Below are positions 25,745 through 64,000 of a stretch of DNA of 64,000 bases, piece by piece. This DNA is from Candidatus Dadabacteria bacterium (GTDB taxonomy: Bacteria > Desulfobacterota_D > UBA1144 > Nemesobacterales > Nemesobacteraceae). Each line of letters starts with the position of its first letter. Within the stretch, counting starts at the first letter, position 1. Below the pieces are notes generated by a model. It did no database searches. It was not told where the DNA came from and saw only the letters and a list, made by a program, of their open reading frames with translations. The DNA lies in assembly GCA_026705445.1 (NCBI GenBank), contig JAPPAR010000001.1, forward strand, positions 8,030 to 72,029, read 5' to 3'. The position numbers were made by a program, and so were the translations under genes.

Positions 25745-25911
25745 GAAAGCGCCTTTGCTCTCCTAGTTCTCGGGTGAATAAGTATATAATTTCGATTTAT
25801 TTCTGCCAACATGCTGAAACCATTTAATTTACCGTTTTCTCTACCCGTTGTTCGGAACGGGTCCGGTCGGAGAAATTGTTATTTGTTTTTTTCGACTTTA
25901 ATATTAAGGGA

Positions 25912-26586
25912 ATGTCTGGAAAAGCGGTTGTCATGGTCTCTGGAGGCGTGGACAGTTCTACTCTCTGCTATAAGGCGGTTCGGGAAGGGTACGAAGTCTT
26001 TCCTCTTACCTTTATCTACGGACAGAAACACGAAAGAGAGGTCCGTTCCTCAGAAAATGTATGCCGGCATCTGGGGCTTTCTCCCAACATAATTGACCTT
26101 TCTTCCGTAAGGACTCTTTTCGGCGCCTCTGCGCTTACCGACCGGGACGTCGAGATTCCCAGGGTTTCCGCGACGGCGCGCAATTACGAGACCCTATCGG
26201 CAACAGTCGTTCCGAACCGAAACGCCATCTTTCTCTCCCTTTCGGTTGCCTATTCACAGGGTATCGGCTGCGACACTGTGTTCTACGGCGCGCATCATTC
26301 CGACAGGGGTGTGTATCCCGACTGCCGAGCGGAGTTCGTTTCGGCTTTCGAGAAAGCGGAGAGACTCGCGACTGACAACGAACGCCTCACCATAATTGCC
26401 CCGTTTATAGATATGGACAAGTCGGGGATAGTCAGACTCGGTGCGCGTCTCGGGGTTCCTTTCGAAGATACGTGGTCGTGCTACGTGGGTTCCCGTATGC
26501 ACTGCGGCACCTGCAGTTCGTGCAGGGAGAGAAAAAGGGCCTTTATCGAAGCGGATGTGGATGATCCGACGGAATATGAGGCGTAA
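25912..26586 (+). CDS. queC: 7-cyano-7-deazaguanine synthase
   Basis: PP-loop SGGVDSST and a C-terminal zinc-binding CxxC...CxxC region (CGTCSSC). The ATG at 25912 is preferred to the frame start at 25876. Confidence 0.9.
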   Translation: MSGKAVVMVSGGVDSSTLCYKAVREGYEVFPLTFIYGQKHEREVRSSENVCRHLGLSPNIIDLSSVRTLFGASALTDRDVEIPRVSATARNYETLSATVVPNRNAIFLSLSVAYSQGIGCDTVFYGAHHSDRGVYPDCRAEFVSAFEKAERLATDNERLTIIAPFIDMDKSGIVRLGARLGVPFEDTWSCYVGSRMHCGTCSSCRERKRAFIEADVDDPTEYEA

Positions 26587-26591
26587 CTGCG

Positions 26592-27233
26592 ATGAAGGTA
26601 AGTGAAATTTTCTTTTCAATACAGGGTGAAGGAATCCATATTGGGCTGCCGACGGTCTTTCTCAGGCTTTTTGCCTGTGATCTCAGATGCAGTTGGTGCG
26701 ACACCATGTACGCCGTGGAGGGGAATGACTTCCGGGAGATGGAAACAAGCGAGGTCCTGAGCAAGGTTCTTGAATACGGATGCTCCCGCGTCTGCATAAC
26801 TGGCGGGGAGCCGCTTATTCAGCGGGATGCCGTGGAGGAGGTAACGGAATTTCTGCTCGAGAGGGATTTTGTGGTAGTGCTTGAAACAAGCGGACACAAG
26901 AAACCTCCTGGGATTTTCTCCCATCCCAATTCGGTCGTGAGCATGGACTGCAAGTGTCCCGGTTCGGGCATGGACTCCAGGATGGATTTCTCCCTCTACG
27001 ACGCCTTGGGGGAGAAGGACCAGCTTAAGTTCGTAATAGCCGATAATGCTGACTACGAGTACGCGAGGAGTATTGTAGCCGAGCATCATATCAGCGCTTC
27101 AATCATATTCCAGCCCGTTTACGGTACAAAAGCGGACTGGATAGCCGAGAGAGTCCTGCGCGACGGCATGGAGAACGTAAGAGTGCTTCCGCAGCTTCAC
27201 AAAATATTCTGGGGAGAAAAAAGGGGAGTCTGA
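26592..27233 (+). CDS. queE: 7-carboxy-7-deazaguanine synthase (radical SAM)
   Basis: Characteristic N-terminus EIFFSIQGEGIHIGLPTVFLRLFACDLRCSWCDT. Confidence 0.9.
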   Translation: MKVSEIFFSIQGEGIHIGLPTVFLRLFACDLRCSWCDTMYAVEGNDFREMETSEVLSKVLEYGCSRVCITGGEPLIQRDAVEEVTEFLLERDFVVVLETSGHKKPPGIFSHPNSVVSMDCKCPGSGMDSRMDFSLYDALGEKDQLKFVIADNADYEYARSIVAEHHISASIIFQPVYGTKADWIAERVLRDGMENVRVLPQLHKIFWGEKRGV

Positions 27234-52477: not shown

Positions 52478-55400
52478 GCTTTCCCTGAGGGTCACCGCGC
52501 CTTCCCCGAGCAGTCCCTCGATGTTTTCTATGAGCTCGTCCCCGAAGTCGACCTTGCAGTTTCCGACCCTTAGGACGGCCTCTGAGTGGTTGGTCTTCAT
52601 GTCGATTATAACGGTCGAGTCTCCCGGGAACTTCTCGAGGATATCCCTCAGGCTGAGTATGTTCTGCTCGCTTGCCGATTTGCGGGCGATGCTTATGCAG
52701 ACAGCGGAATTCGTCCTGGTCTCCCTGAGCGAGGAGATGTCGCTTGCAAGAAGACGTATCTTGTCATCCGAGACCTCGATTTTCCCCTTCACTATCACCG
52801 GTTCCACCTTCTGTTCCAGAAGGGAACTGGACGTGCGCAGAGTGTCGTTGAACACTATTGCTTCTGTGAAACCGTTCAGATCCTCCAGGGTGAAGTAGCC
52901 GATGAGGCCGGTTCCCCTGCGGGTGTTTTTGGTTTCGAACGATCTCACCACTCCCGCGATTCTCACTTCGGAGCCGTCTCTTGCCCGTTTTATGGATTCG
53001 GTGTCGTGAAGGCGGCTGTATTTTTCAAGCTCGGAGGAGTGCTTTCGAAGCGGATGGGAAGATATGAAAAACCCGAGCACGTCAAGCTCGTTCTCGAGCC
53101 TGATGCGGTCATCCCAGGGTTCGGTTTCGGCAAGAGTCGGGGCGGCCACGGAATCTGGAAGGTCAAACAGCATTCCCTGCCCGTTCGCCGGCGTGTGCTG
53201 TTTCATGGAGTTGTACCCGAGCAGGGACTCGCAGGAAGCGAACAGCCGCGCCCTGCTTGGTTCCAGGGAATCGAAAACGCCTCCCTTTATCAGGCTTTCA
53301 AGTGCCTTTTTGTTTAGTTTTCTCGAATCCACCCTGGCGCAGAAGTCGAAGACGGATTCGAATACCCCGTCTTTTTCCCTGCTTCTGACTATTTCCTCGG
53401 TCAGGCCATCCCCGACGTATTTGATTGCGGTGAATCCGAACAGCACCTTTCCTTCCGACACCGTGAACCCGGAGCAGCTTCGGTTTATGTCGGGCTGCAG
53501 AACGTCGATTCCGAGTTTTCTGCACTCGGTTATGCCGGAGATCACCTTGTCCACGTTGTGGGCTTCCACGGACATGAAGGCTGCCATGAATTCAGCCGGG
53601 TAATGCGACTTGAGGTAGGCCGTCTGGTAGGTGATCATGGCATAGGCGGCGCTGTGGCTCTTGTTAAAGGAATACTCAGCGAATTTTTCGAGGGTGTCGA
53701 AAAGCTCCGCGGCCAGCTTGCTCTCGAGGCCCTTTTTTTCCGCTCCCGTAAGGAACCTTTTGCGTTGCGCCCTCATTTCGCTTGATTTTTTCTTGCCCAT
53801 TGCCCTTCGCAGGAGGTCCGCCTCCCCCATGGTGAAGCCCGCAAGCTCGCTCGCGGTCTGCATTATCTGCTCCTGGTAAACGAAGAGGCCGTAGGTTCCT
53901 CCCAGTATCTCCCGAAGCGCGGGATGCGGAAAATCAACCGTGCCACCGTTTTTCCTCCGGGTGAACTCCTCCGCCATGCCGCTGTCAAGAGGGCCTGGGC
54001 GGTAAAGCGCTAGGGCGGCCGTTATGTCCTCGAACTCCGCGGGCCGCAGCTTCGCCAGAAGATCCTTCATTCCCTGGGATTCAACCTGGAATATCCCCAT
54101 GGTTGCGCCTTCGCAAAGCAGGGCGTAGACCTTCGGGTCGTTAAGGGGGATTCTGTCAAGGTCGAATTCCTTTTCGTCTTTTCCCTGATTTTCCCTGACG
54201 TACTTAACAGCCTTGTCCAGTATTGTAAGGGTCTTTAGGCCAAGGAAATCGAATTTCACGTAGCCGAGCTTCTCTATGGAGTTCATGTCGAACTGGGTTA
54301 CGATCTCGTTTTTGCTTCCCCTGTAAAGCGGTATGTAGTCGGCAAGCGGCTCATTCGATATCACCACCCCTGCCGCGTGGGTGGAGGAATGGCGCACCAT
54401 GTTCTCAAGCGACCTCGCAAGTTCCACCGCTTCGGCAAGCTCCTTGTTCTCAGAAAGCCGCTCCTTTATTTCCTTTACCTTGCCTACGGCTTCCTTTATG
54501 CTGAACACCTTTCCCCGGAAAGAGGGGATCATCTTCGAGAGCCGGTCGACTTCCGCGTAGGGAAGCCCGAGCACCCTTCCCACGTCCTTTATCACGGCTT
54601 TCGAGGACATGGTTCCGAAGGTGCCGATCTGGGCAACCTTGTCCGCCCCGTACTTCTCCGTGACGTATCTTATTACCTCGTCGCGGTGCTCACCGCAGAA
54701 ATCGACGTCTATGTCGGGCATGCTCACCCTCTCGGGGTTAAGAAACCTCTCGAAAATAAGGTTGTGCCTTATGGGGTCGATGGCCGTTATGCCGAGGGCG
54801 TAGGCGACCAGGCTCCCGGCGGCGCTTCCCCGCCCCGGCCCAACCGGGATATCGTTTTTTCTGGCGTGGAATATGAAGTCGGAGACCACGAGGAAGTACG
54901 CGGAAAATCCCATCTTGCAGATGGTGTCAAGCTCCGAGCGAAGCCGCTCGCGGTAGGTTTCGTGGGACTCTTCGGGTATTTCGTTTTCCCGGAGCATTCT
55001 CTCGAGATTCCTGCCCGAGATCTCGCGCATGAATTCGTCAAGCGACTTTCCCTCTGGAGGGACGTATTCGGGGAACCTGTATCCCTCGTTTCTGAATTCG
55101 AAGTCGCAGCGCTCAGAGATTTTCACAGACTCCTCAATGGCGTCCTCGAAACCCTCAAGTTCCTGCGTCATTTCCTCCCTTGTCTTGACGTAGAAATCAT
55201 CGCTCTGGAATCTCATTCTCTTGCGGTCGGCCACCATGCTCCCAGTCTGGATGCACAAAAGTGCGTCGTGCGACTTGTAGTCCTCCCTGGTGAGAAAATG
55301 GCAGTCGTTGGTCGCCGCGAGCTTTATGCCCATGCTACTGGCGATTTTGCGAAGCTGACTGTTGATCCTGCGTTGCTCGGGAAGGCCGATTGCCTGCACT

Positions 55401-55915
55401 TCAAGATAGTAGCGGTCCCCGAATATCTCCTTGTATACAGAAGCGATTCTTATCTGCTCCTTCTGATCTTTTTTGAAAATGGCCTGGGAAAGCTCGCTGC
55501 TCATGCACCCGGAGAGGACTATGAGCCCCTCGTTGTGCTCAGACAGCATCTCGTGATCAACGCGCGGACGGCGGTAGAACCCCTCGAAGTATCCTTTTGT
55601 AACAAGTCTCGAGAGGTTCCTGTATCCCTGCTCGTTCATGCAGAGCACGGTGAGATGATAGTTCTTTCCGTCCGAAGGTTTTTCAAGCTTGAGGGTCGGG
55701 GTGACGTAGAGTTCGCAGCCTATTATGGGCTTTACGCCGCGGGCCTTTGCCTTTTCGAAAAACTCGTACGCGCCGAAGAGGTTTCCGTGATCGGTCACGG
55801 CAACGGCGGGCATGGCCTGGCTCTCGGCTCTCTCGATCAGCTCGTCGAACTTTATCGAGCCGTCAAGAAGCGAGTACTGCGAGTGTAGATGTAGGTGAAC
55901 GAAGGAATCTGCCAT
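52466..55915 (-). CDS. dnaE: DNA polymerase III alpha subunit
   Basis: 1149 aa. PHP domain N-terminus (HLHLHSQYSLLDGS), polymerase core and an OB domain. Confidence 0.95.
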   Translation of the reverse strand: MADSFVHLHLHSQYSLLDGSIKFDELIERAESQAMPAVAVTDHGNLFGAYEFFEKAKARGVKPIIGCELYVTPTLKLEKPSDGKNYHLTVLCMNEQGYRNLSRLVTKGYFEGFYRRPRVDHEMLSEHNEGLIVLSGCMSSELSQAIFKKDQKEQIRIASVYKEIFGDRYYLEVQAIGLPEQRRINSQLRKIASSMGIKLAATNDCHFLTREDYKSHDALLCIQTGSMVADRKRMRFQSDDFYVKTREEMTQELEGFEDAIEESVKISERCDFEFRNEGYRFPEYVPPEGKSLDEFMREISGRNLERMLRENEIPEESHETYRERLRSELDTICKMGFSAYFLVVSDFIFHARKNDIPVGPGRGSAAGSLVAYALGITAIDPIRHNLIFERFLNPERVSMPDIDVDFCGEHRDEVIRYVTEKYGADKVAQIGTFGTMSSKAVIKDVGRVLGLPYAEVDRLSKMIPSFRGKVFSIKEAVGKVKEIKERLSENKELAEAVELARSLENMVRHSSTHAAGVVISNEPLADYIPLYRGSKNEIVTQFDMNSIEKLGYVKFDFLGLKTLTILDKAVKYVRENQGKDEKEFDLDRIPLNDPKVYALLCEGATMGIFQVESQGMKDLLAKLRPAEFEDITAALALYRPGPLDSGMAEEFTRRKNGGTVDFPHPALREILGGTYGLFVYQEQIMQTASELAGFTMGEADLLRRAMGKKKSSEMRAQRKRFLTGAEKKGLESKLAAELFDTLEKFAEYSFNKSHSAAYAMITYQTAYLKSHYPAEFMAAFMSVEAHNVDKVISGITECRKLGIDVLQPDINRSCSGFTVSEGKVLFGFTAIKYVGDGLTEEIVRSREKDGVFESVFDFCARVDSRKLNKKALESLIKGGVFDSLEPSRARLFASCESLLGYNSMKQHTPANGQGMLFDLPDSVAAPTLAETEPWDDRIRLENELDVLGFFISSHPLRKHSSELEKYSRLHDTESIKRARDGSEVRIAGVVRSFETKNTRRGTGLIGYFTLEDLNGFTEAIVFNDTLRTSSSLLEQKVEPVIVKGKIEVSDDKIRLLASDISSLRETRTNSAVCISIARKSASEQNILSLRDILEKFPGDSTVIIDMKTNHSEAVLRVGNCKVDFGDELIENIEGLLGEGAVTLRESSFA

Positions 55916-56047
55916 TGCGGGTTATGAAGTTAAATTATACACCTTCCCTCGGTTTCATCCAGTAGCAGAAGGAAATGACAACCGGGCCTTAATCGAGTAA
56001 ATTAATAGTCTAGTTTCCGACAAACCGGGTGGTTGAATCTTTACGTC

Positions 56048-57583
56048 ATGTACGAGGAAACGGAATTCAAGCTGTCCCTTTCGCCCGCCGTGGCGAACCG
56101 GATTCTGCGTTACAAGGGGCTTAAGCCCCTTCGCAGGGGCCGTCGCACAAAGCGCCATCTCGTAAGCACCTACTTCGATACCCCGCGCCATGCGCTTAGA
56201 AAATCCGACATAGTCCTTCGGGTGCGCGATAACGGCAACGGCAAGCAGCAGACTATAAAGGTGCCGTTCCAAGGCCCCGCAGGACTTCAGAATTTCCGGG
56301 AATGGACCGTTCCGGTAAATGGCGATTCCCCGAATCTTCGCGCCGTGGACGACCCGGCGCTCGCTCGCGCTCTCTCCCGTCGGCGCTACGAAAAGCGCCT
56401 AGGCACCGTGTTCATCACGGACTTCGAGCGCGAGGCGGTTCGTATCAGGACCAAGGGTGCCGAATTCGAACTGGCAGTGGATCAGGGAGTGATTCACGCC
56501 GAAACATCCTGGGGACGCATTGAGGAGCCTATCTGCGAAGCGGAATTCGAACTGCTCTCGGGGGATCCGGCGCGGATGTTAGACGTGGCCCTTGAACTTT
56601 GCGAGGCTTACGACGTACGCCTTGCCCACCTTACTAAGGCGCAGAGGGGCTACGCGCTCGTAAGGCCGGCCCTTCGGCCAAGACCGCTTAAGGCCCCGAA
56701 GGTCACGCTCACAGAGGATATGAGCGTGGGAGAGGCGTTTAATTTCATCATTGCTGGCGCGCTTGAGCACATGTTCGCAAACGAGATTCCGACCCTAGAG
56801 GGAAGGGCGGAGGGAGTTCATCAGACAAGGGTGGCTATGAGGCGCGTGCGCGCGGCGCTTCGGGCCTTCAAAAGAATACTTCCATATGACAAGCGAAAGG
56901 CCTTTAACGGAGAGTTCCGCTGGTTCCAGCAGCGCCTGGCCCCGGCCCGCGACTGGCAGGTGTTTTTAAGCGAGACCCTTCCCAGGATAGCCTCCGCGGC
57001 GCCAGGGCAGGAGGAAGCGATAGAGCGCCTTCGGCGCATTGCCCGTGCAGAGCGGCGCCGCGCCGTCGGGGATGCGGCCGGCTATCTTGAGAGCCGCCGC
57101 TACGCCCGTCTTCTACTCCAGTTCGAGCGATGGGTCGCGTCTGTGGAGAAAGAGGTCGGCTCAAAGACTTTCAGCCAGCCCGTGAAGCCGTTTGCAAAAA
57201 GCGTGCTCAGGAGAACATGGCGCTATTTTCTCGAGGATACGAGGCCCCTTTCGCGTCTTCCTGACGAGGATCTTCACGAAATAAGAAAGCGTGGGAAAAA
57301 GGCCCGCTACGCAACGCAGTTTTTCAACTCGCTCTGGAGCGGTCCCGAGGTTCCGCCCTTCATGAAGCTCATGGGACGCTTCCAGGACAGCCTCGGAAAA
57401 ACAAACGACGCGATAGTCGCGCGGCACATCCTTGCGGCGGTCAAGCCCGGAAGACTTGATCCCTCGATGGTCCGTCTTGCGCAGGAATGGTCGCAGGCTA
57501 GGGTTAGAAAGTGCCTTCGCACGGCGCAGCCGCAGTGGAGGCGCCTCGTGAGGATCACCCCGTTCTGGGAGACGGGGCAGTGA
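56048..57583 (+). CDS. CYTH (triphosphate tunnel) plus CHAD domain protein
   Basis: N-terminal EIEFKL-type CYTH start (ETEFKLSL) and a C-terminal helical CHAD region rich in R/H. The start coordinate is taken from the ORF track; the displayed sequence near 56040 looks 1 nt out of register with it. Confidence 0.7.
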   Translation: MYEETEFKLSLSPAVANRILRYKGLKPLRRGRRTKRHLVSTYFDTPRHALRKSDIVLRVRDNGNGKQQTIKVPFQGPAGLQNFREWTVPVNGDSPNLRAVDDPALARALSRRRYEKRLGTVFITDFEREAVRIRTKGAEFELAVDQGVIHAETSWGRIEEPICEAEFELLSGDPARMLDVALELCEAYDVRLAHLTKAQRGYALVRPALRPRPLKAPKVTLTEDMSVGEAFNFIIAGALEHMFANEIPTLEGRAEGVHQTRVAMRRVRAALRAFKRILPYDKRKAFNGEFRWFQQRLAPARDWQVFLSETLPRIASAAPGQEEAIERLRRIARAERRRAVGDAAGYLESRRYARLLLQFERWVASVEKEVGSKTFSQPVKPFAKSVLRRTWRYFLEDTRPLSRLPDEDLHEIRKRGKKARYATQFFNSLWSGPEVPPFMKLMGRFQDSLGKTNDAIVARHILAAVKPGRLDPSMVRLAQEWSQARVRKCLRTAQPQWRRLVRITPFWETGQ

Positions 57584-57671
57584 GTATGGCTTTTCACGCA
57601 GCAGGTGATTATGTAAACTCACGGGTTGTGGGTGTTAGGACGCAGAATCTTATCGTCCAAGGAGACTGCAG

Positions 57672-59825
57672 GTGGCTTCTTCGGTAACGGACATTTCGAG
57701 CAAGAGGTTCCCGCTTCGCCCTTCTGAGCGGTATATCAACAGGGAGCTTTCCTGGCTTGATTTCAATCTGCGGGTTTTGGAGACGGCGGCCAGCAAGAAT
57801 GTTCCGCTTCTTGAGAGGGTGCGCTTTCTCTCCATCTCCGCAAGCAATCTCGATGAGTTCTACATGGTAAGGGTAGCGGGTCTTGCGGGACAGGTTATGG
57901 AAGGTGTGACCGACCGCAGCAAAGACGGCCTTACACCCTCCCAGTAGCTCGAAGCCATAAGGGGGAAGGTCCGTTCCCTGCTTGACAGCCAGTACGAGTG
58001 CGAAAAGGAACTGTTTTCCCTCTGCAAGAAGGCGGGGATCAAGATCGTAACTCCCGAGAAACTTGACCGCTCGGGCGCGAAGTGGCTCTCCGAGTGGTTC
58101 TCGAATAAGCTTTTCCCGGTTCTTACCCCGCTTGCCATAGACCCGGCGCATCCGTTCCCCTTCATACAGAGTGAGCGCCTTGTATGCGCCGTGCAGCTAA
58201 GCCGCGCCGAGGACGGAAAGCGCATGAAGGGTCTTATACTGCTGCCTTCCCAGGTGGAGCGCTTCATAGAGGTTCCGGGAGGAAAAAAAGTACAGTTTGT
58301 TCCGATCGAGAAGGTTATCGAGCACAACATGAAATTCCTTTTCCCGGGTTTTGAGGTTGAGGACAACGGAATCTTCCAGATCACCCGCGACAGCCTTCTT
58401 GAGATAGACGAGGACGCGGAAGACCTGGTAGAGACGTTTGAGACGGCGCTTAAGCAGCAGCGCAGGGGAGGCTCCGTGATCAGGGTTGACGTCAACGCGG
58501 ATATGCCGGATGCGATAGTTGACTTCATAATGGAGAAGATTGAGGCCCACGACGCGCATTTTTTCAGGATCAAGGGGATGCTCGGGCTTGAAAGCGTGAA
58601 ACAGATAATAATCGATGAGCGAAGCGACCTTCTTTACAAGCGCATGAATATCCGCTACCCCGAGAGGGTAAGGGAATTCGGGGGCGACGTAATAGCCGCC
58701 ATACAGCAGAAGGATTTCGTCGTTCACCACCCTTACGAGAGTTTCGACGTCGTCGTTGAGTTCCTGAAGCAGGCCGCGGCGGACCCGGCGGTCGTCGCGA
58801 TCAAGCAGACGCTTTACCGCACCTCGGAAGACTCCCCGATAGTGAAAAGGCTCATAGAGGCCGCCGAGACCGGAAAATCCGTAACTGCCATGGTGGAGCT
58901 AAAGGCCCGTTTCGATGAGGAGGCCAACATTCGCTGGGCGCACGATCTCGAGGACGCGGGGGTTCAGGTCGTGTACGGATTCATCGATCTTAAGACCCAC
59001 GCCAAGGTGTCTCTTGTGGTGAGAAGGGAGGGTTCTGACATCCGCACCTACACCCACTATGGCACCGGCAACTATCACCCCGTAAACGCCAAGATATATA
59101 CTGACCTCAGCTACTTCACGGCCGACGAGGCGCTGGGTCGCGACGCCGCCAAGCTTTTTAACTACATGACCGGCTACGCCACTCCTAAGAAGATGGAGAG
59201 GATATTCTTCTCTCCCGTAACGATGCGCCCGAAGGTGCTTGAATTGATAAGGGACGAGGTAGACCACGCGAAGGCCGGCCGTCCCGCGGTTATATGGGCC
59301 AAGATGAACTCCCTTGTGGACAGCAAGATAATAGACGCGCTTTACGCGGCGAGCCGCGCGGGGGTGCGCGTCGAGCTTTTCGTTCGGGGAATATGCTGCC
59401 TGCGGCCCGGGATGCCTGGGCTCTCCGAGAACATAAGGGTGAAGAGCATCGTGGGACGTTTCCTCGAGCACAGCAGGGTCATCTGCTTCGGCGCGGGGGA
59501 AGGGCTTCCCTCTAATGCCTGCAAGGTCTTCATCTCGTCCGCAGACTGGATGCCCCGCAATCTTGACCGCAGGGTGGAGTCGCTTGTTCCGATCGAAAAC
59601 GCCACCGTGAAAAAGCAGCTCGTTGAGCAGGTGATGGTCGCTAACTTAAACGATGTAGCTAACAGCTGGGAAATGCTTCCCGACGGTTCTTTCCGCAAGC
59701 TTAAAAGCGATGCGGACAGCTTCTCGGCTCACAAGTACTTTATGACTAACCCCAGTCTTTCGGGACGAGGCAAGGCGCTTGCCGAATCCAGGCCGGTAAT
59801 GCCGGCTGAGTTTGTGCAGGAATAA
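57672..59825 (+). pseudogene. ppk: Polyphosphate kinase 1 interrupted by an in-frame TAG at 57945-57947 (codon 92); the frame reopens and continues to 59825
   Basis: The N-terminal segment [18 protein letters not shown]...[20 protein letters not shown] and the downstream ORF are collinear with PPK1 in the same frame. The TAG is read directly in the sequence (TPSQ*LEAIRGKV). Confidence 0.6.
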
Positions 59826-60024
59826 TTCATGGCAGAGATTCTTTTCCCCGCCTCACCCTTCGGCAAAAACGGAAGTATGCGTGTATTATCTTAAGTTCAG
59901 GAGATAAAGCTGGCAGTGTGTAGTGATTAAAAATCAAGCAATCTTTTACAAAATTTGAAACCACGATTAAAAAAAGGATAATTGTTATCAAGTTATTTGA
60001 GTGATTCAGGAGGAGATTTAAAAC

Positions 60025-60243
60025 ATGGACCCCGAGAAACAACTTAAGTCCGAGGATAAGAAGAAAGATATAGATGATCAGTCGTTTGAACATCTGCATC
60101 GTAATTTGTTTGACCATCCGAACGACGAAGAATGGAGTGCGACTCGCTCACTGGCCCAACCTTCATTTCTCAAGCAGATTAACAGCCACGGTAGTGCCCA
60201 CAGCCAACCAATGAAGGTTTCCCCAACCACTTCCGAACAATAA
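60025..60243 (+). CDS. Small acidic, His-containing hypothetical protein, translationally coupled (TAATG) to the downstream peptidase
   Basis: 72-aa ORF in a low-GC insertion. Its stop overlaps the next start by 1 nt. Confidence 0.35.
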   Translation: MDPEKQLKSEDKKKDIDDQSFEHLHRNLFDHPNDEEWSATRSLAQPSFLKQINSHGSAHSQPMKVSPTTSEQ

Positions 60244-61151
60244 TGCCTAACTGGTCAGAAGTACTGAACGAGATCAGGAATCTTGACGCTAAACTAATAT
60301 CCCAGTCAGCGCCTGATCAGGTTCGTCGCAAATATCTTAAAAACCTGTTTGAAAAAACCGGTCGCAATACTGTTGCCTACTATTCGGGCTGGCTGTCAAA
60401 GCCCAATATAGAAGGCATTCATATTAACGACGAAGATAAGAACGGCTTTATGATGGCTGTTCATGAGCTTGACCGTTCAGTTGGACTTGACTTAATTCTG
60501 CATACCCCGGGTGGAGAGCTTCACGCAACGGAATCAATTATTCATTATCTTCACCAGATGTTTAATGACGACATTCGCGTTATCGTACCACAGATAGCCA
60601 TGTCGGGTGGTACCCTTATTGCGTGTTCCAGCAAGCAGATACTGATGGGCGCTCATTCAAACCTGGGTCCGATTGATCCACAGTTACGGGGAGTGCCCGC
60701 ATATGGTGTAATTGAGGAATTTCGAACTGCTGCGGCACAGATTAAGGAAGACCCCAGCAAAGTCCATGTTTGGAATCCAATTCTCTCCAAGTATCATCCG
60801 ACATTTCTCAGCCAATGCAAAAACGCAATTGAACATAGCAGCGAAGTTGCCCAAAACTACCTAGAAAGAGTTATGTTTAAGGGTGTTGCTGACAGGAGGA
60901 AGATTGCCGAGAAAATTGTCAAAGGTCTGACTGATTACTCAGGCAACAAATCCCATGCCAGGCACATTCATATCGATGAATGCAAAGCTCTTGGATTAAA
61001 AGTTTCGGAGTTTGAATCCGATCAAGAGCTGCAGGAACTTGTTTTAACCGTGCATCATGCGTTTATCCATACCCTTATGAATACACCATCGGTTAAAATC
61101 ATCGAAAATCACCTTGGTCGAGCTTTGATCAAGACTTTCGTATCAGGGTAG
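60243..61151 (+). CDS. ClpP/SppA-class serine peptidase (SDH 'serine dehydrogenase proteinase'-like, S49-like)
   Basis: LHTPGGELHA (compare ClpP/SppA xSPGG) and a catalytic-Ser context IAMSGGTLIA (compare SppA AASGGY). 302 aa with no TM segment. GC about 45%. Confidence 0.55.
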   Translation: MPNWSEVLNEIRNLDAKLISQSAPDQVRRKYLKNLFEKTGRNTVAYYSGWLSKPNIEGIHINDEDKNGFMMAVHELDRSVGLDLILHTPGGELHATESIIHYLHQMFNDDIRVIVPQIAMSGGTLIACSSKQILMGAHSNLGPIDPQLRGVPAYGVIEEFRTAAAQIKEDPSKVHVWNPILSKYHPTFLSQCKNAIEHSSEVAQNYLERVMFKGVADRRKIAEKIVKGLTDYSGNKSHARHIHIDECKALGLKVSEFESDQELQELVLTVHHAFIHTLMNTPSVKIIENHLGRALIKTFVSG

Positions 61152-61327
61152 CAATAGCCGTTATGGCTAGACTGCTTCAAATAGAGAGTTTTTCCGACAT
61201 TACGACAGGTCTAGGACGGATGAAGCTGCTTAATGCTATGGACAATCTGAATACCTGGAAACGAGGTGACAACCGAAAAATCCTTGCTTTTTCTATCTGC
61301 GCTTGTTGAGCAAGCCGGGAACAATCC

Positions 61328-62860
61328 ATGACAGAAATCTCTCCTCCCGCCACGCCGTTCGGCAAGGCCGGAACCGTGGCGGTAATTGACGTGGGATCGA
61401 ATTCCATACGTCTTGTGATCTACAAGGGCCCTAGGCGCGCCCCGCTTCCGATACTTGATGAGAAGGTTCCCTGCGGCTTGGGGCGCGGGATGGATTCTCA
61501 GGGCAGGATGTCTCCGCAGAGCATGGATCTCGCCCTGCGAACTGTAAGCCGCTTTGTCGATATCGCGCGGTCCATGAGGGTTTCCGGCGGAATAAAGGCG
61601 GTTGCCACCGCTGCGGTGAGAAACGCCGCAAATGGCCCCGATTTCAAAAAGGCCGTTGAGCAGCAATGCGGGATTTCTCTTCGGGTGCTCTCCGGCATGG
61701 ACGAGGCTAGGCTTTCTGCTCTTGGCACTCTCTGCGCTATCCCTGACGCTGACGGCGTAATGGGGGACATAGGCGGCGGAAGCCTTGAATTGGTGGAGAT
61801 CTGCGAGGGGGAAATAGGAAACCACGCTACATTGCCGCTTGGCACGATACCGCTTCTTGAAAGCGGTCTGAGTCCCGTGAAAGCCCGCAAGAAACTGATT
61901 GCCCCCCTCCTTGACGAGCTTCCCTGGCTTGAGAACGCGAAAAAGAAGACCTTCTACGCCGTCGGGGGTTCGTGGAGAGCCTTGGCTAAAAAACACATGG
62001 AGTCTGATGATTACCCGCTTCGAATAGTTCACGGCTACAGTCTTTCCAGATCAAGGGCAGTTGATATGGTCCGGGAGATAGCCGAGATGTCTTCAGGTTC
62101 GCTTCAGGACCTCTGGATTCTGGGGCGAAACAGGGTGGAGTCTGCTCCTTACGCCGCCACGCTTATGAAGAGTCTTTTAAAAAAAACGGACGTTAACAAC
62201 CTTACGTTCTGCACGTACGGGCTTCGGGAGGGATGCATATACGACGATCTTTCCCCGGAGCAGCGTTCTCTGGATCCTCTGGTTGTCATGTGTGAGGAGA
62301 TTGCCCTTAAGATGGGAAGATCCATTGAGGAGGGCAAGGCTTTCTGCAGGTGGATAGATCTGGCGATTCCTGATAAATACTCTAGGGACCCGAGGTTGAG
62401 ACTCGCTGCATGCCATCTCTCGGACATAGGAATTTCCGAGCATCCGGAGTACCGCGCGGAGCAGGTGTTTTTGAGGATACTGCGGATGCCGTTTGTGGGA
62501 ATTGCTCATCCGGAGAGGGTGATGGTAGCTCTGTCGGTGGCCTCAAGGCACGCAGCGATCGGAAACTTGGTCCGTCGCTGGGAAGTCTCGGATTTTCTTT
62601 CCGGAGACGATATTGAAGAAGCTAGGGTTACGGGGCTTGCGCTTCGCCTGGCCTACACGGTTTCAGGAGGAGTGGCGCGGATTCTTGAGAGCACTAGGCT
62701 TGAGAGGACCGGAGAAAAACTTGTTTTACATATGCCTGACCAGATTCCACATCCGGAAACTGTAGGTAGGCGTCTGGGCGCCCTTGCCAAGGCCGTCGGA
62801 TGCGATTACGAGACGATTGCAGGGGAGGTGTCTTTGGTTAGAACAGCAAGATTTATGTAA
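61328..62860 (+). CDS. ppx: Exopolyphosphatase (Ppx/GppA family)
   Basis: N-terminal AVIDVGSNSIRLVIY and the ASKHA fold typical of Ppx/GppA. 510 aa. Confidence 0.85.
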   Translation: MTEISPPATPFGKAGTVAVIDVGSNSIRLVIYKGPRRAPLPILDEKVPCGLGRGMDSQGRMSPQSMDLALRTVSRFVDIARSMRVSGGIKAVATAAVRNAANGPDFKKAVEQQCGISLRVLSGMDEARLSALGTLCAIPDADGVMGDIGGGSLELVEICEGEIGNHATLPLGTIPLLESGLSPVKARKKLIAPLLDELPWLENAKKKTFYAVGGSWRALAKKHMESDDYPLRIVHGYSLSRSRAVDMVREIAEMSSGSLQDLWILGRNRVESAPYAATLMKSLLKKTDVNNLTFCTYGLREGCIYDDLSPEQRSLDPLVVMCEEIALKMGRSIEEGKAFCRWIDLAIPDKYSRDPRLRLAACHLSDIGISEHPEYRAEQVFLRILRMPFVGIAHPERVMVALSVASRHAAIGNLVRRWEVSDFLSGDDIEEARVTGLALRLAYTVSGGVARILESTRLERTGEKLVLHMPDQIPHPETVGRRLGALAKAVGCDYETIAGEVSLVRTARFM

Positions 62861-62956
62861 GATTTAGAAGATTAAAAGCCTCTGTATATTTACCTTGTAC
62901 TATCGAAAAAAGCTTATAATTCTTACAGAAAATATCAATCAGAAGGGTAAAAGGAA

Positions 62957-63484
62957 TTGAACATCGACTCGCTAATAGACTTTACCAATGAAGCTACTAA
63001 AGAAATAGCCAAGTATAAACGTGATTTTATACTGTCTCAGCCGAAAATGATAAAGAAGGATAAAAAATACATTATTTCTACTCTTGATTGGAACTCTGTT
63101 AGCTATGGTCCTGCAGAAGTGAATAAGGTTCCGAATGATAAACGTGGTATATACGCTTTTGCGATTTGTCAAAAGAGTGCTGTGTTACCGCCACACGGGT
63201 ATATTTTATATATAGGAATTGCGGGTCGTGATTCAAAACGCTCACTTAGAAAGCGCTATAAAGACTACCTGAATGAGCACGAAGTTAGAAAACGTGATGG
63301 GATCGCACGAATGATTGGGACATGGCATAAAGTCCTAAGGTTCTTCTTTGCTCCGGTAGATGACAATGTTTCTTCTGATGATCTCAAGAAATTGGAACAA
63401 CAGTTAAATACGGCACTTATGCCACCGTTCTCTATAAACGATTTGGAAGCTGATACGAAGAGAAAGATAAGGGCGTTCAAGTGA
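62957..63484 (+). CDS. GIY-YIG-like nuclease-domain protein
   Basis: RGIYAF ... YILYIGIAGRDSKRSLRKRYKDYLNEHE fits GIY...YIG...R..R...H/E spacing. Low-GC region. The stop overlaps the next start (GTGA). Confidence 0.4.
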   Translation: MNIDSLIDFTNEATKEIAKYKRDFILSQPKMIKKDKKYIISTLDWNSVSYGPAEVNKVPNDKRGIYAFAICQKSAVLPPHGYILYIGIAGRDSKRSLRKRYKDYLNEHEVRKRDGIARMIGTWHKVLRFFFAPVDDNVSSDDLKKLEQQLNTALMPPFSINDLEADTKRKIRAFK

Positions 63485-64000
63485 GGAAAATCAAGCCAAA
63501 AAAAATTATCTTACCTGCTCTCCGCGGTATTATGGGTGATTGGGTGTACTATTCCTGTCTTTTAGATTTGCGAGAATTGAGTTTAAGAGTTGATTATGCA
63601 AAGGAAATTCATAATAACGAAAAGCTTTCGGACATGATACAGAGAAGGTTAGAAGAGTACCGAGGTAAACTAATTGCCGAATATCTCCATATGCAACCGG
63701 AGCGGTTTTTCAATTCTCTTATTGTTGCTGTATATGGTGGTCAGCCCAATTGGCATGCATTGTCCGATGTTCGGAGTAAAGGGGAGAATGACGAACTCAA
63801 GAACCTTACTGAATCGACTATTGCTTCAGTAGGGTTCTTAACTCTTAGCGGAGACGAGAAACTCTTTGCACTAGATGGACAACACCGGCTTGCGGGCATC
63901 AAAAAGGCCATCGAAGATGGCCTCATTCAAGATACTTATGATGAGGTATCAGTTATCTTGGTTGCGCATAAGAATACAAAAAGAGGTTTAGAAAGGACAC
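63481..64000 (+). CDS. DGQHR-domain (DndB/DpdB-like, ParB-fold) protein, N-terminal part; the gene continues past the window end
   Basis: Manual translation from the GTG at 63481 gives ...LFALDGQHRLAGIKKAIEDG..., the defining DGQHR motif. The frame is open to the window edge and is absent from the ORF table. Confidence 0.55.
   Translation, partial: MRKIKPKKIILPALRGIMGDWVYYSCLLDLRELSLRVDYAKEIHNNEKLSDMIQRRLEEYRGKLIAEYLHMQPERFFNSLIVAVYGGQPNWHALSDVRSKGENDELKNLTESTIASVGFLTLSGDEKLFALDGQHRLAGIKKAIEDGLIQDTYDEVSVILVAHKNTKRGLERT

What the first reader, a model, noticed from the sequence alone, without database searches (positions are those of the whole stretch)
62870..64000. Window-edge AT-rich locus: GIY-YIG-like nuclease gene GTGA-coupled to a DGQHR (DndB/DpdB-like) gene
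After ppx the GC drops to about 40%. A 175-aa protein has a GIY...YIG...R...E arrangement. It overlaps the start (GTGA) of a gene whose product contains the DGQHR motif (ALDGQHRLAGIKKA) that defines DndB/DpdB-type ParB-fold proteins of DNA phosphorothioation and 7-deazaguanine DNA-modification systems. The gene runs off the window. A DGQHR protein paired with a GIY-YIG nuclease is not the canonical dnd or dpd layout. It may be the start of a DNA-modification, restriction or defence island. The same window carries queC and queE (preQ0 synthesis) about 36 kb away, without queD or queF nearby. That fits dpd-type biology but also ordinary queuosine synthesis.
Basis: partly seen in the sequence, partly recalled or inferred. 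Interest (0 to 1): 0.6.

Follow-up and report, generated by a model that had tools for sequence, protein, structure and literature searches.

The report
Nuclease–DndB-like pair of an Ssp island
The two genes at the window edge are a real, widely conserved pair (a divergent GIY-YIG nuclease plus a DndB-like DGQHR protein). They open a 13-kb Ssp-type DNA phosphorothioation defence island and sit where the known effector SspE normally sits, so they are probably an undescribed accessory or effector of that system.

Summary
ORF1 (62957-63484, 175 aa) overlaps by GTGA a DGQHR/DndB-family gene (63481 onwards, 419 aa in full), and GC falls from about 0.56 to about 0.39.

ORF1 itself gets only a sub-threshold GIY-YIG hit (E 0.13). 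Three other lines support a divergent, probably active GIY-YIG nuclease:
- Its wider family keeps the Y, Y-x-G, R, Y and E catalytic set.
- Distant members hit PF01541 at 1e-6.
- A pLDDT-94 model is closest to the GIY-YIG restriction enzyme R.Eco29kI.

Extending the contig shows a low-GC island of about 13 kb: ORF1> DGQHR> <PLD <GHKL ATPase <helicase <sspD <sspC <sspB <sspA. It lies between ppx and hipBA. This is an Ssp island, not dnd or dpd.

In 62 species-level genomes from many phyla, the DGQHR gene follows ORF1 in 59. sspD lies 17-110 nt upstream in 37. Variable restriction modules follow (PbeABCD, SspFGH, or helicase-GHKL-PLD). No SspE occurs in any of the 41 Ssp loci.

My best reading (about 0.45) is a split analogue of SspE, in which a ParB-like NTPase switch licenses a nuclease. 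The main rival is a DndB-like controller of modification. I found no paper describing the pair.

The parts
62861..62956 (+). AT-rich intergenic leader between the ppx stop and ORF1. This is the left boundary of the low-GC island. It holds a weak sigma-70-like match (TTTAGA-16-TATATT at 62863-62890) and a GAAGGG Shine-Dalgarno-like motif at 62942-62947.
   Evidence: The GC drop is. The promoter-like site is, but the number of such sites does not exceed shuffles, so it is not evidence of function.
62957..63484 (+). ORF1: a 175-aa divergent GIY-YIG-like nuclease with a TTG start. The catalytic candidates are Y66 (GIY), Y85/G87 (YIG), R100, Y104 and E147. An N-terminal helical region of about 45 aa has no assigned function.
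   Evidence: - ORF and homologues.
- In the diverse family alignment Y66, Y85, G87 and R100 are invariant; G64, Y104 and E147 are at least 90% conserved.
- Pfam GIY-YIG hits occur in distant family members, best E 9.8e-7.
- The AF2 model has pLDDT 93.8.
- The top Foldseek PDB hit is R.Eco29kI, probability 0.92, E 0.039.
63481..64000 (+). The 5' part (173 of 419 codons) of the DGQHR / DndB-family ParB-fold gene. It has a GTG start inside GTGA, overlapping the ORF1 stop. The full gene would end at window-equivalent position 64740 (L001 10525-11784).
   Evidence: - Translation.
- PF14072 at E 9.5e-16.
- TIGR03187 at 72 bits for the fragment and 105 bits for the full protein.
- The full length comes from the contig extension.
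- The motifs PALRG, IQR, FN, DGQHRL, TRRLFT.LNK and ALDEDD are at least 95% conserved in 57 orthologues.

Best explanation
The two genes form a conserved, translationally coupled pair: a divergent GIY-YIG endonuclease and a DndB-family (DGQHR, ParB/Srx-fold) protein. The pair belongs to Ssp-type DNA phosphorothioation (PT) systems.

Shown here:
- In this genome (a sponge-associated Candidatus Dadabacteria population) the pair is the left end of a low-GC island of about 13 kb, inserted between ppx and hipBA.
- The island order is ORF1> DGQHR> <PLD-like HKD nuclease <GHKL ATPase <SF2 helicase <sspD <sspC <sspB <sspA.
- In most other genomes the pair lies directly downstream of sspD, in the sspBCD operon. 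That is the position sspE occupies in sspBCDE systems.
- No sspE is present in any of those loci.

Inferred mechanism: SspABCD marks host DNA with single-strand PT. The DGQHR protein acts as an NTP-dependent switch or sensor that reads the PT or DNA state. It licenses its partner GIY-YIG nuclease to nick or cut DNA. This would be a two-protein analogue of SspE, in which a DUF262 ParB-like GTPase is fused to a DUF1524 HNH nickase. The helicase-GHKL-PLD triad would be a second, interchangeable restriction module.

Confidence by layer:
- That this is an Ssp PT island: about 0.95.
- That the pair is functionally tied to PT systems: about 0.85.
- That it works as an SspE-like effector: about 0.45. 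This last figure is the overall confidence given.
For: Island composition:
- Window 52957-64000 equals L001 1-11044 at 100% identity. L073 overlaps L001 at 99.97%.
- SspD matches PADLOC at E 3.4e-134 and SspC at E 0 (1129 bits).
- SspB (DUF4007) and SspA (Aminotran_5) lie on L073.
- Low GC of 0.38-0.47 runs throughout.

Linkage across 62 species-representative genomes from Thermodesulfobacteriota, Latescibacterota, Chloroflexota, Alpha- and Gammaproteobacteria, Rhodothermales, Nitrospinales, Acidobacteriota and Spirochaetia:
- The DGQHR gene is adjacent to ORF1 in 59 of 62.
- sspD lies within 10 kb in 41 of 62.
- The sspD-ORF1 spacer is 17-110 nt, median 31, in 37 loci.
- The ATGA/GTGA overlap is present in 44 of 61 loci.
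- No DGQQR/SspE-type protein occurs in any of the 41 Ssp loci.

Loci without ssp mostly carry other PAPS-reductase or cysteine-desulfurase modules:
- PDC-M33ABC, where M33C is DUF6339 plus PAPS reductase.
- A 399-aa PAPS-reductase protein next to a cysteine desulfurase.

The third module varies between loci, so the pair tracks the modification genes rather than any one restriction module:
- PbeABCD in 15 loci.
- Helicase-GHKL-PLD in 12 loci.
- SspFGH in 6 loci.

Two sspC relatives, hand-picked from the long-contig hits and not chosen through ORF1, also had a small GIY-YIG protein plus a DndB-like gene next to sspD.

Family members at about 30% identity keep the 4-nt overlap with a DndB-family gene.

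A cultured example exists: Roseobacter litoralis B14 plasmid pROLI83 carries sspABCD-hypothetical-DGQHR plus PLD, ATPase and helicase.

The nuclease looks competent. The catalytic residues are invariant and the fold matches GIY-YIG.

Precedents from the literature:
- SspE is the DndB equivalent of Ssp systems, a ParB-like domain fused to an HNH nuclease (PMC10853773).
- DUF262 and DGQHR domains are related (PMC4619093).
- 83.9% of sspBCD loci lack both sspE and sspFGH (PMC8092258).
Against: - There is no biochemical or genetic data for any member of the pair. The SspE analogy rests on gene position, domain logic and absence of sspE within 10 kb. It does not rest on homology of the nuclease.
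- Most loci carry an additional bona fide restriction module. The pair therefore need not be an effector at all.
- DndB, the nearest characterised relative, is a transcriptional and ATP-modulated regulator of PT level, not a nuclease partner (PMC4507180).
- DpdB is an ATPase that helps a modification enzyme (PMC10164549).
- ORF1's own GIY-YIG profile hit is sub-threshold, and no Foldseek hit reaches E<=1e-3.
- The position of the sixth canonical residue (Asn) is uncertain.
- A Rhizobium Ti plasmid has a distant pair next to SspFGH-like genes with no sspBCD within 10 kb.
- A few loci (L021, L031) show no PT genes nearby.
- In the window's own genome the pair is not in the sspBCD operon. It is convergent with it, and the triad lies between them.
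Confidence: 0.45

Rival explanations
1. DndB-like controller of modification. The DGQHR protein is the Ssp counterpart of DndB or DpdB. It would be an ATP-modulated repressor or limiter of sspBCD, or an ATPase helper of the modification complex. The GIY-YIG protein would assist modification, for example by nicking or resolving stalled intermediates. Restriction would be done only by the variable third module: helicase-GHKL-PLD, PbeABCD or SspFGH.
For: - The pair is co-operonic with sspBCD (spacer 17-110 nt), as dndB is with dndCDE.
- Its best characterised relative by profile is DndB (PADLOC E 3.4e-12; TIGR03233 E 8e-13).
- Most loci have a separate restriction module.
- DndB regulates PT frequency (PMC4507180).
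- DpdB is an ATPase needed by DpdA (PMC10164549).
Against: - A repressor does not need an obligatory, translationally coupled nuclease with invariant catalytic residues.
- SspB is already the nickase of the modification step (PMC8092258).
- No HTH domain was detected in the DGQHR protein.
- The TIGR03233 score is 48 against a cutoff of 328, so it is not a DndB orthologue.
Confidence: 0.3
2. Independent two-gene defence or toxin module. It would be self-contained and would only co-localise with PT systems because defence genes cluster in islands.
For: - The pair occurs in a few loci with no PT genes within 10 kb (L021, L031).
- It sits beside other defence genes, including GmrSD, SNF2/ParB, SIR2 and PIN.
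- ParB-like domain plus nuclease is a recurrent stand-alone design, as in GmrSD (PMC4619093).
Against: - About 56 of 62 loci carry SspD-type, M33C-type or other PAPS-reductase or cysteine-desulfurase genes within 10 kb. This is a hand tally.
- 37 loci have a 17-110 nt spacer to sspD on the same strand.
- Random island co-localisation would not fix both the order and the operon structure across phyla.
Confidence: 0.12
3. Part of a Dpd-type 7-deazaguanine DNA-modification system supplied with preQ0 by the window's queC and queE.
For: - DpdB is also a DndB-family protein.
- queC and queE are in the window.
Against: - No PADLOC DpdB model matches the DGQHR protein.
- The island's modification genes are sspABCD. 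There is no dpdA or tgt-like gene.
- Only marginal DpdK (E 0.0016) and DpdE (E 0.0019) hits appear, on the PLD and helicase proteins.
- None of the 62 related loci was seen with dpd genes.
- queC and queE lie 36 kb away in normal-GC DNA.
Confidence: 0.01
4. ORF1 is a selfish GIY-YIG homing endonuclease or a degenerate remnant, and its position next to the DGQHR gene is incidental.
For: GIY-YIG domains are common in homing endonucleases. ORF1 is small and AT-rich.
Against: - The protein is 60-80% identical across phyla and keeps the same partner in 59 of 62 loci, with a conserved 4-nt overlap.
- There is no intron or intein context.
- Pfam found none of the DNA-binding modules typical of homing endonucleases.
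Confidence: 0.02

Closest known systems
SspE of SspABCD-SspE systems (DUF262 ParB-like GTPase fused to a DUF1524 HNH nickase)
   Same: - Genomic position: directly downstream of sspD in the ssp operon.
- Domain logic: a ParB/Srx-superfamily NTPase-type domain with a DGQ(H/Q)R motif plus an endonuclease.
- The pair and SspE were never seen together in the 41 Ssp loci examined.
   Different: - Two separate, translationally coupled proteins, in the reverse order (nuclease first).
- The nuclease is GIY-YIG, not HNH.
- The ParB-like part belongs to the DGQHR/DndB family, not to DUF262.
- No PADLOC SspE model matches either protein.
- PT-stimulated NTPase and nicking activity are untested.
DndB of DndBCDE (TIGR03233 / PF14072)
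   Same: - DGQHR ParB-fold domain, with PF14072 and TIGR03187 hits above cutoff.
- Encoded in the same operon as PT-modification genes.
   Different: - TIGR03233 scores 48 bits against a cutoff of 328, so this is a different subfamily.
- It is partnered with sspBCD rather than dndCDE.
- It always has an upstream GIY-YIG gene, which canonical dndB lacks.
GIY-YIG restriction endonucleases (R.Eco29kI, PDB 3nic/3mx4) and T4 EndoII
   Same: - Best structural neighbours of the ORF1 model.
- Same order of motifs: GIY, YIG, R, Y/H, E.
   Different: - Only 11-17% identity, TM about 0.43 and E 0.04.
- A 17-residue insert between GIY and YIG.
- An extra N-terminal helical region.
- No recognisable DNA-recognition domain of its own.
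PbeABCD and SspFGH, the known PT-linked restriction modules
   Same: They occur beside the same sspBCD-ORF1-DGQHR core in other genomes. The window's helicase matches PbeA partially (E 7e-25).
   Different: The window's island has a helicase-GHKL ATPase-PLD triad instead. The HKD nuclease is a separate gene. There is no CxC ABC ATPase (PbeC), no DndE-like PbeD and no SspF/G/H.
GmrSD type IV restriction enzymes
   Same: ParB-like NTPase domain plus nuclease, sometimes split into two proteins (PMC4619093).
   Different: - They target modified bases.
- They use DUF262 plus DUF1524 domains.
- They are not linked to ssp genes.

Membership tests
GIY-YIG nuclease superfamily (ORF1) | Profile match above the curated threshold (PF01541, PF20815 and related models) | tested here: inconclusive
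   - ORF1 itself scores E 0.13, 12.7 bits against a cutoff of 22.4.
- 8 of 48 close homologues hit sub-threshold.
- Among 108 diverse family members, 24 hit GIY_YIG_2 and 18 hit PF01541, best E 9.8e-7. No other family matches more than 3 members.
GIY-YIG nuclease superfamily (ORF1) | Conserved catalytic residues: Tyr of GIY, Tyr of YIG, Arg, His/Tyr, Glu and Asn | tested here: met
   Y66, Y85, G87 and R100 are invariant. G64, Y104 and E147 are at least 90% conserved across 108 sequences down to 26% identity. The Asn position is uncertain: it could be N151, N161 or D162.
GIY-YIG nuclease superfamily (ORF1) | The alpha/beta GIY-YIG fold | tested here: inconclusive
   - The AF2 model has pLDDT 93.8 and pTM 0.87. 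Its core runs strand-strand, two short helices and a longer one, strand, helix (E64-70, E82-89, H97-105, H107-111, H114-126, E127-133, H140-154).
- The only Foldseek PDB hits with meaningful probability are GIY-YIG nucleases: R.Eco29kI at 0.92 and 0.66, T4 EndoII at 0.30.
- The best E is 0.039 and TM is 0.43.
GIY-YIG nuclease superfamily (ORF1) | Endonuclease activity | not testable with these tools
   Needs purified protein and DNA cleavage assays.
DGQHR domain / DndB Pfam family (ORF2) | Profile match above cutoff, plus the DGQHR pentapeptide, the QR pair and the F-x-x-x-N motif | tested here: met
   - PF14072 at E 9.5e-16, 58 bits against a cutoff of 29.
- TIGR03187 at 72 bits for the fragment and 105 bits for the full protein, against a cutoff of 58.85.
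- DGQHRL, IQR and FN are at least 95% conserved in 57 orthologues.
DndB proper (TIGR03233 equivalog, dndBCDE) | Equivalog-level score and dndCDE neighbours | tested here: not met
   The score is 48.1 bits against a cutoff of 328. The neighbours are sspABCD, with no DndC/D/E.
DpdB / Dpd 7-deazaguanine system | A DpdB profile match with dpdA and dpdC-K neighbours | tested here: not met
   - No PADLOC DpdB model matched the DGQHR protein at E<=1 (fragment) or E<=0.01 (full length).
- No dpdA-like gene is in the island.
- The only Dpd-model hits are marginal: DpdK at E 0.0016 on the PLD protein and DpdE at E 0.0019 on the helicase.
SspABCD phosphorothioation system (island as a whole) | SspD (PAPS-reductase-like), SspC (Orc/BrxC-like ATPase), SspB (DUF4007) and SspA (cysteine desulfurase) in one cluster | tested here: met
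   - SspD at E 3.4e-134, aligned end to end.
- SspC at E 0, 1129 bits.
- A DUF4007 gene of 309 aa and an Aminotran_5 gene of 385 aa lie on L073, which overlaps the contig at 99.97%.
- All four lie outside the 64-kb window.
SspABCD phosphorothioation system (island as a whole) | PT (CpsC) modification present in the DNA | not testable with these tools
   Needs LC-MS/MS of PT dinucleotides or PT-sensitive sequencing.
SspE | DUF262 (DGQQR) N-terminal domain plus DUF1524 HNH C-terminal domain in one protein | tested here: not met
   No SspE, GmrSD_N or GmrSD_C hit for ORF1 or the DGQHR protein. The resemblance is functional only.
PbeABCD | HKD-SF2 helicase fusion (PbeA), small protein, CxC ABC ATPase (PbeC) and DndE-like protein (PbeD) | tested here: not met
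   The window-island helicase hits PbeA only partially (E 7e-25, helicase part). The HKD domain is a separate 301-aa protein. The ATPase is GHKL (HATPase_c_3, E 9e-23), not ABC.

The most novel reading that the evidence does not exclude
The GIY-YIG + DGQHR pair, in several sequence variants, is the missing and widespread partner of the roughly 84% of sspBCD systems that lack SspE and SspFGH. In this reading it is a two-protein, PT-state-reading nuclease. A DndB-type ParB NTPase licenses a GIY-YIG endonuclease. That would make it a new class of PT-dependent effector, and it would reveal an enzymatic, non-regulatory role for DndB-family proteins.
Probability: 0.35. Interest if true: 0.75.

Novelty: new variant of a known kind. 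Interest (0 to 1): 0.6.

Why it matters
Ssp and Dnd phosphorothioation systems are an active area of phage-defence research. One open problem is that most sspBCD clusters have no known restriction partner (PMC8092258). A second is that the role of DndB-family ParB-like proteins is disputed: regulator, NTPase or nuclease helper (PMC10853773).

A conserved nuclease + DndB-like pair, embedded in the ssp operon across many phyla, gives a concrete candidate for both problems. It can be tested in a cultured host, because Roseobacter litoralis B14 plasmid pROLI83 carries the same gene set.

For annotation, ORF1 relatives are currently labelled 'hypothetical protein'. They have no Pfam, NCBIfam or PADLOC model.

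Tried and rejected
- **Dpd reading: rejected.** No DpdB model hit and no dpdA. queC and queE look like ordinary housekeeping genes.
- **Canonical Dnd reading: rejected.** TIGR03233 scores far below its cutoff and there is no dndCDE.
- **The island's extra genes as SspFGH: rejected.** SspF/G/H models hit other loci but not the window's triad. The SspFGH paper describes unrelated proteins.
- **Direct sequence link of ORF1 to solved structures: nothing found.** An hmmsearch of A1 against PDB sequences gave nothing at E<=10. The same was true for the DGQHR protein.
- **Promoter and terminator scan around the pair: uninformative.** Counts equalled those of shuffles.
- **Literature searches found no description of the pair.** Terms used were SspFGH, DGQHR, sspBCD + DndB + GIY-YIG, PDC-M33/DUF6339, GHKL/PLD/phosphorothioate, and DndB-like. 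The library lacks many subscription papers, so absence is not proof.
- **Not attempted.** A mirror-tree co-evolution test was considered and not run.
Full report
**1. The observation**

ppx (Ppx-GppA plus Ppx_C, 61328-62860) is followed by a sharp GC drop. GC is 0.55-0.59 before 62800 and 0.36-0.42 from there to the window end.

ORF1 (62957-63484, + strand, 175 aa) starts at TTG. A GAAGGG motif lies 9 nt upstream. Homologues begin at the same residue.

The next gene starts at GTG 63481, inside GTGA. It overlaps the ORF1 stop by 4 nt, contains FALDGQHRLAGIKKA and runs off the window.

**2. What the two genes encode**

The downstream gene is a DGQHR/DndB-family ParB-fold protein.
- PF14072 scores E 9.5e-16.
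- TIGR03187 scores 72 bits for the fragment and 105 bits for the full 419-aa protein, against a cutoff of 58.85.
- It is not a DndB orthologue: TIGR03233 scores 48 bits against a cutoff of 328.
- It matches no PADLOC DpdB or SspE model.
- In 57 orthologues the motifs PALRG, IQR, FN, DGQHRL, TRRLFT.LNK and ALDEDD are at least 95% conserved.

ORF1 is harder to place.
- Its own Pfam hit to GIY_YIG_2 is sub-threshold (E 0.13).
- Close homologues do no better: 8 of 48 hit, best E 0.095.
- PDB sequences give nothing.

The wider family is informative.
- A profile search of 1.84 billion representatives found 495 clusters.
- In an alignment of 108 members down to 26% identity, Y66, Y85, G87 and R100 are invariant. 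G64, Y104 and E147 are at least 90% conserved. This is the GIY, YIG, R, Y/H, E catalytic set.
- Of those 108 members, 24 hit GIY_YIG_2 and 18 hit PF01541 (best E 9.8e-7). No unrelated family matches more than two.
- With this alignment the AlphaFold2 model reaches pLDDT 93.8 and pTM 0.87, and shows a strand-strand-helix-strand-helix core.
- Its only PDB neighbours with meaningful probability are GIY-YIG nucleases: R.Eco29kI at probability 0.92 and E 0.039, and T4 EndoII. No hit reaches E<=1e-3.

I conclude that ORF1 is a divergent, probably catalytically competent GIY-YIG nuclease.

**3. What lies beyond the window**

The exact ORF1 protein is found on several metagenomic contigs of a Candidatus Dadabacteria population from sponge metagenomes. 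Window 52957-64000 is identical to L001 1-11044. L073 overlaps the far end of L001 at 99.97%.

The joined map is:

dnaE, CYTH-CHAD, ppk, SDH-protease, ppx | ORF1> DGQHR> <PLD-like HKD protein (301 aa) <GHKL ATPase (629 aa, HATPase_c_3 E 9e-23) <SF2 helicase (538 aa; partial PbeA and RadD-like hits) <SspD (E 3.4e-134) <SspC (1106 aa, E 0) <SspB (DUF4007, 309 aa) <SspA (cysteine desulfurase, 385 aa) | <hipA <hipB, then housekeeping genes.

Low GC (0.38-0.47) covers about 13 kb, from ORF1 to sspA.

The finding is therefore the left edge of an Ssp-type phosphorothioation island. It is not a dnd or dpd island.

**4. Is the pair part of the Ssp system?**

A scan of one genome per species returned 62 loci from many phyla.
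- The DGQHR gene directly follows ORF1 in 59 of 62.
- The ATGA/GTGA overlap is present in 44 of 61 loci.
- sspD lies within 10 kb in 41 loci. In 37 it is on the same strand, 17-110 nt upstream (median 31 nt). The canonical layout is sspA(-) sspB sspC sspD ORF1 DGQHR.

What follows the pair varies:
- PbeABCD in 15 loci (PbeA E 6e-177).
- Helicase-GHKL-PLD in 12 loci, as in the window.
- SspFGH in 6 loci (E 0).
- An 810-aa weakly GHKL-like protein in 4 loci.
- Nothing recognised in the rest.

No SspE-type (DGQQR) protein occurs in any of the 41 Ssp loci.

Most loci without ssp carry other PAPS-reductase or cysteine-desulfurase modules:
- The PADLOC candidate PDC-M33ABC, directly upstream of ORF1.
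- A 399-aa PAPS-reductase protein plus a cysteine desulfurase, next to GmrSD, SNF2, ParB and MBL genes.

Further support:
- Family members at about 30% identity keep the overlap with a DndB-family gene, one of them beside PbeABCD.
- Two sspC relatives, picked by hand from the long-contig hits without reference to ORF1, also had a small GIY-YIG protein plus a DndB-like gene next to sspD.
- A cultured example is Roseobacter litoralis B14 plasmid pROLI83, where ORF1 is annotated 'hypothetical protein'.
- A more distant pair on a Rhizobium Ti plasmid sits beside SspFGH-like genes with no sspBCD within 10 kb.

**5. Mechanism**

Shown:
- The two genes are a tightly conserved, translationally coupled unit.
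- That unit is physically tied to PT-modification genes.
- The nuclease keeps its catalytic residues.
- The ParB-like protein keeps its DGQHR pocket.

Inferred: the pair occupies the slot of sspE. It has the same domain logic as SspE, a ParB-like NTPase joined to an endonuclease (PMC10853773, PMC4619093). But it is split into two proteins and uses GIY-YIG instead of HNH. I therefore favour a PT-state-dependent NTPase switch that licenses a nuclease (about 0.45).

The main rival (about 0.3) is a DndB- or DpdB-like controller or helper of modification, with restriction left to the variable third module. Most loci do have such a module, and DndB is a regulator (PMC4507180). Against this, a regulator would not need an obligate, catalytically intact nuclease partner.

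An independent module that merely co-localises (about 0.12) is hard to square with the fixed operon position across phyla. The dpd and homing-endonuclease readings are essentially excluded.

**6. Comparison with the literature and novelty**

- SspFGH proteins are unrelated (a Walker A protein and an FtsK-like protein). The same paper notes that 83.9% of sspBCD loci lack both SspE and SspFGH (PMC8092258).
- The Dnd reappraisal lists URI/GIY-YIG nucleases among Dnd neighbours and equates SspE with DndB. It does not describe this pair (PMC10853773).
- Six literature searches found no description of the pair. The library is incomplete.
- PADLOC, Pfam and NCBIfam have no model for ORF1.

I rate it a new variant of a known kind: an undescribed accessory or effector module of Ssp PT systems.

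**7. Verdict**

- Interest is 0.6. The finding is not categorically new biology, but it is a widespread and testable gap in a well-studied defence system.

Noticed in passing
window 59600-61200 (ORFs 60025-60243 and 60243-61151, + strand): A second, smaller low-GC islet (0.41-0.46) sits between ppk and ppx. It encodes a 302-aa SDH-type ClpP-fold serine protease (PF01972 E 4e-24; NF047768 E 6e-30, below its cutoff) preceded by an overlapping 72-aa ORF. It looks like a separate horizontally acquired insertion.
   Followed up: partly
window 57672-57947 and 58224-59825 (L001 4716-4991 and 5268-6869): Polyphosphate kinase appears split. A 91-aa PP_kinase_N gene and a 533-aa PP_kinase/C1/C2 gene are separated by about 280 nt. 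This could be a frameshift, a pseudogene or an assembly artefact.
   Followed up: no
L001 11987-16379 (window-equivalent 64943-69335, outside the window): A three-gene module, SF2 helicase, GHKL (HATPase_c_3) ATPase and stand-alone HKD/PLD nuclease, recurs next to sspBCD-ORF1-DGQHR in 12 of 62 genomes and on pROLI83. It matches no defined system; only partial PbeA, MzaB, ZacB and DrmC hits appear. It resembles a split PbeA with a GHKL ATPase in place of the ABC ATPase, and is probably an uncharacterised PT-linked restriction module.
   Followed up: partly
L039 5493-9869; L049, L052, L060, L061: The PADLOC candidate system PDC-M33ABC lies directly upstream of the ORF1-DGQHR pair in several Dehalococcoidia genomes. 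M33C is DUF6339 plus a PAPS-reductase domain, with a weak SspD hit at E 2e-13. This suggests M33 is another PAPS-reductase-based DNA sulfur-modification system. No paper mentions PDC-M33 or DUF6339.
   Followed up: partly
L011 11879-20524 (also L067, L068): In a relative with the same dnaE-ppk-ppx synteny, the pair sits beside a different island. That island holds an MBL-fold protein, two ParB-like proteins, an SNF2 helicase, a GmrSD-type enzyme, a 399-aa PAPS-reductase-domain protein, a cysteine desulfurase and an HTH protein. The site downstream of ppx seems to be a defence-island hotspot in which the pair is retained.
   Followed up: partly
L075 (Rhizobium sp. K1/93 Ti plasmid NZ_CP072148, 171999-192439): A distant ORF1 homologue (34% identity) plus a gene annotated DndB is followed co-directionally by three genes resembling SspF/G/H (589 aa, 513 aa and an 'FtsK' gene truncated at the locus edge after more than 1,700 codons). 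No sspBCD lies within 10 kb, and SIR2, AAA ATPase and PIN genes lie upstream. I did not check whether sspBCD lies elsewhere in that genome.
   Followed up: no
L073 5925-7452 (beyond the right end of the island): A hipB-like (94 aa) and hipA (416 aa) toxin-antitoxin pair with host-like GC flanks the sspA end of the island.
   Followed up: no
window 25876-27233: queC (236 aa, SGGxDS and CxxC motifs) and queE (213 aa, CxxxCxxC radical-SAM motif) are adjacent. They were identified by motif only. There is no dpdA or tgt-like neighbour and no link to the island.
   Followed up: partly
L078 13549-16489 (Acuticoccus sp. I52.16.1 chromosome CP094828): A variant of the pair lies convergent with sspD. 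It consists of a 214-aa protein with textbook GIY, YIG, R, H, E and N motifs and a long insert, plus a 764-aa weakly DndB-like protein (E 3e-7 to the DGQHR profile). This suggests several sequence families fill the same role.
   Followed up: partly
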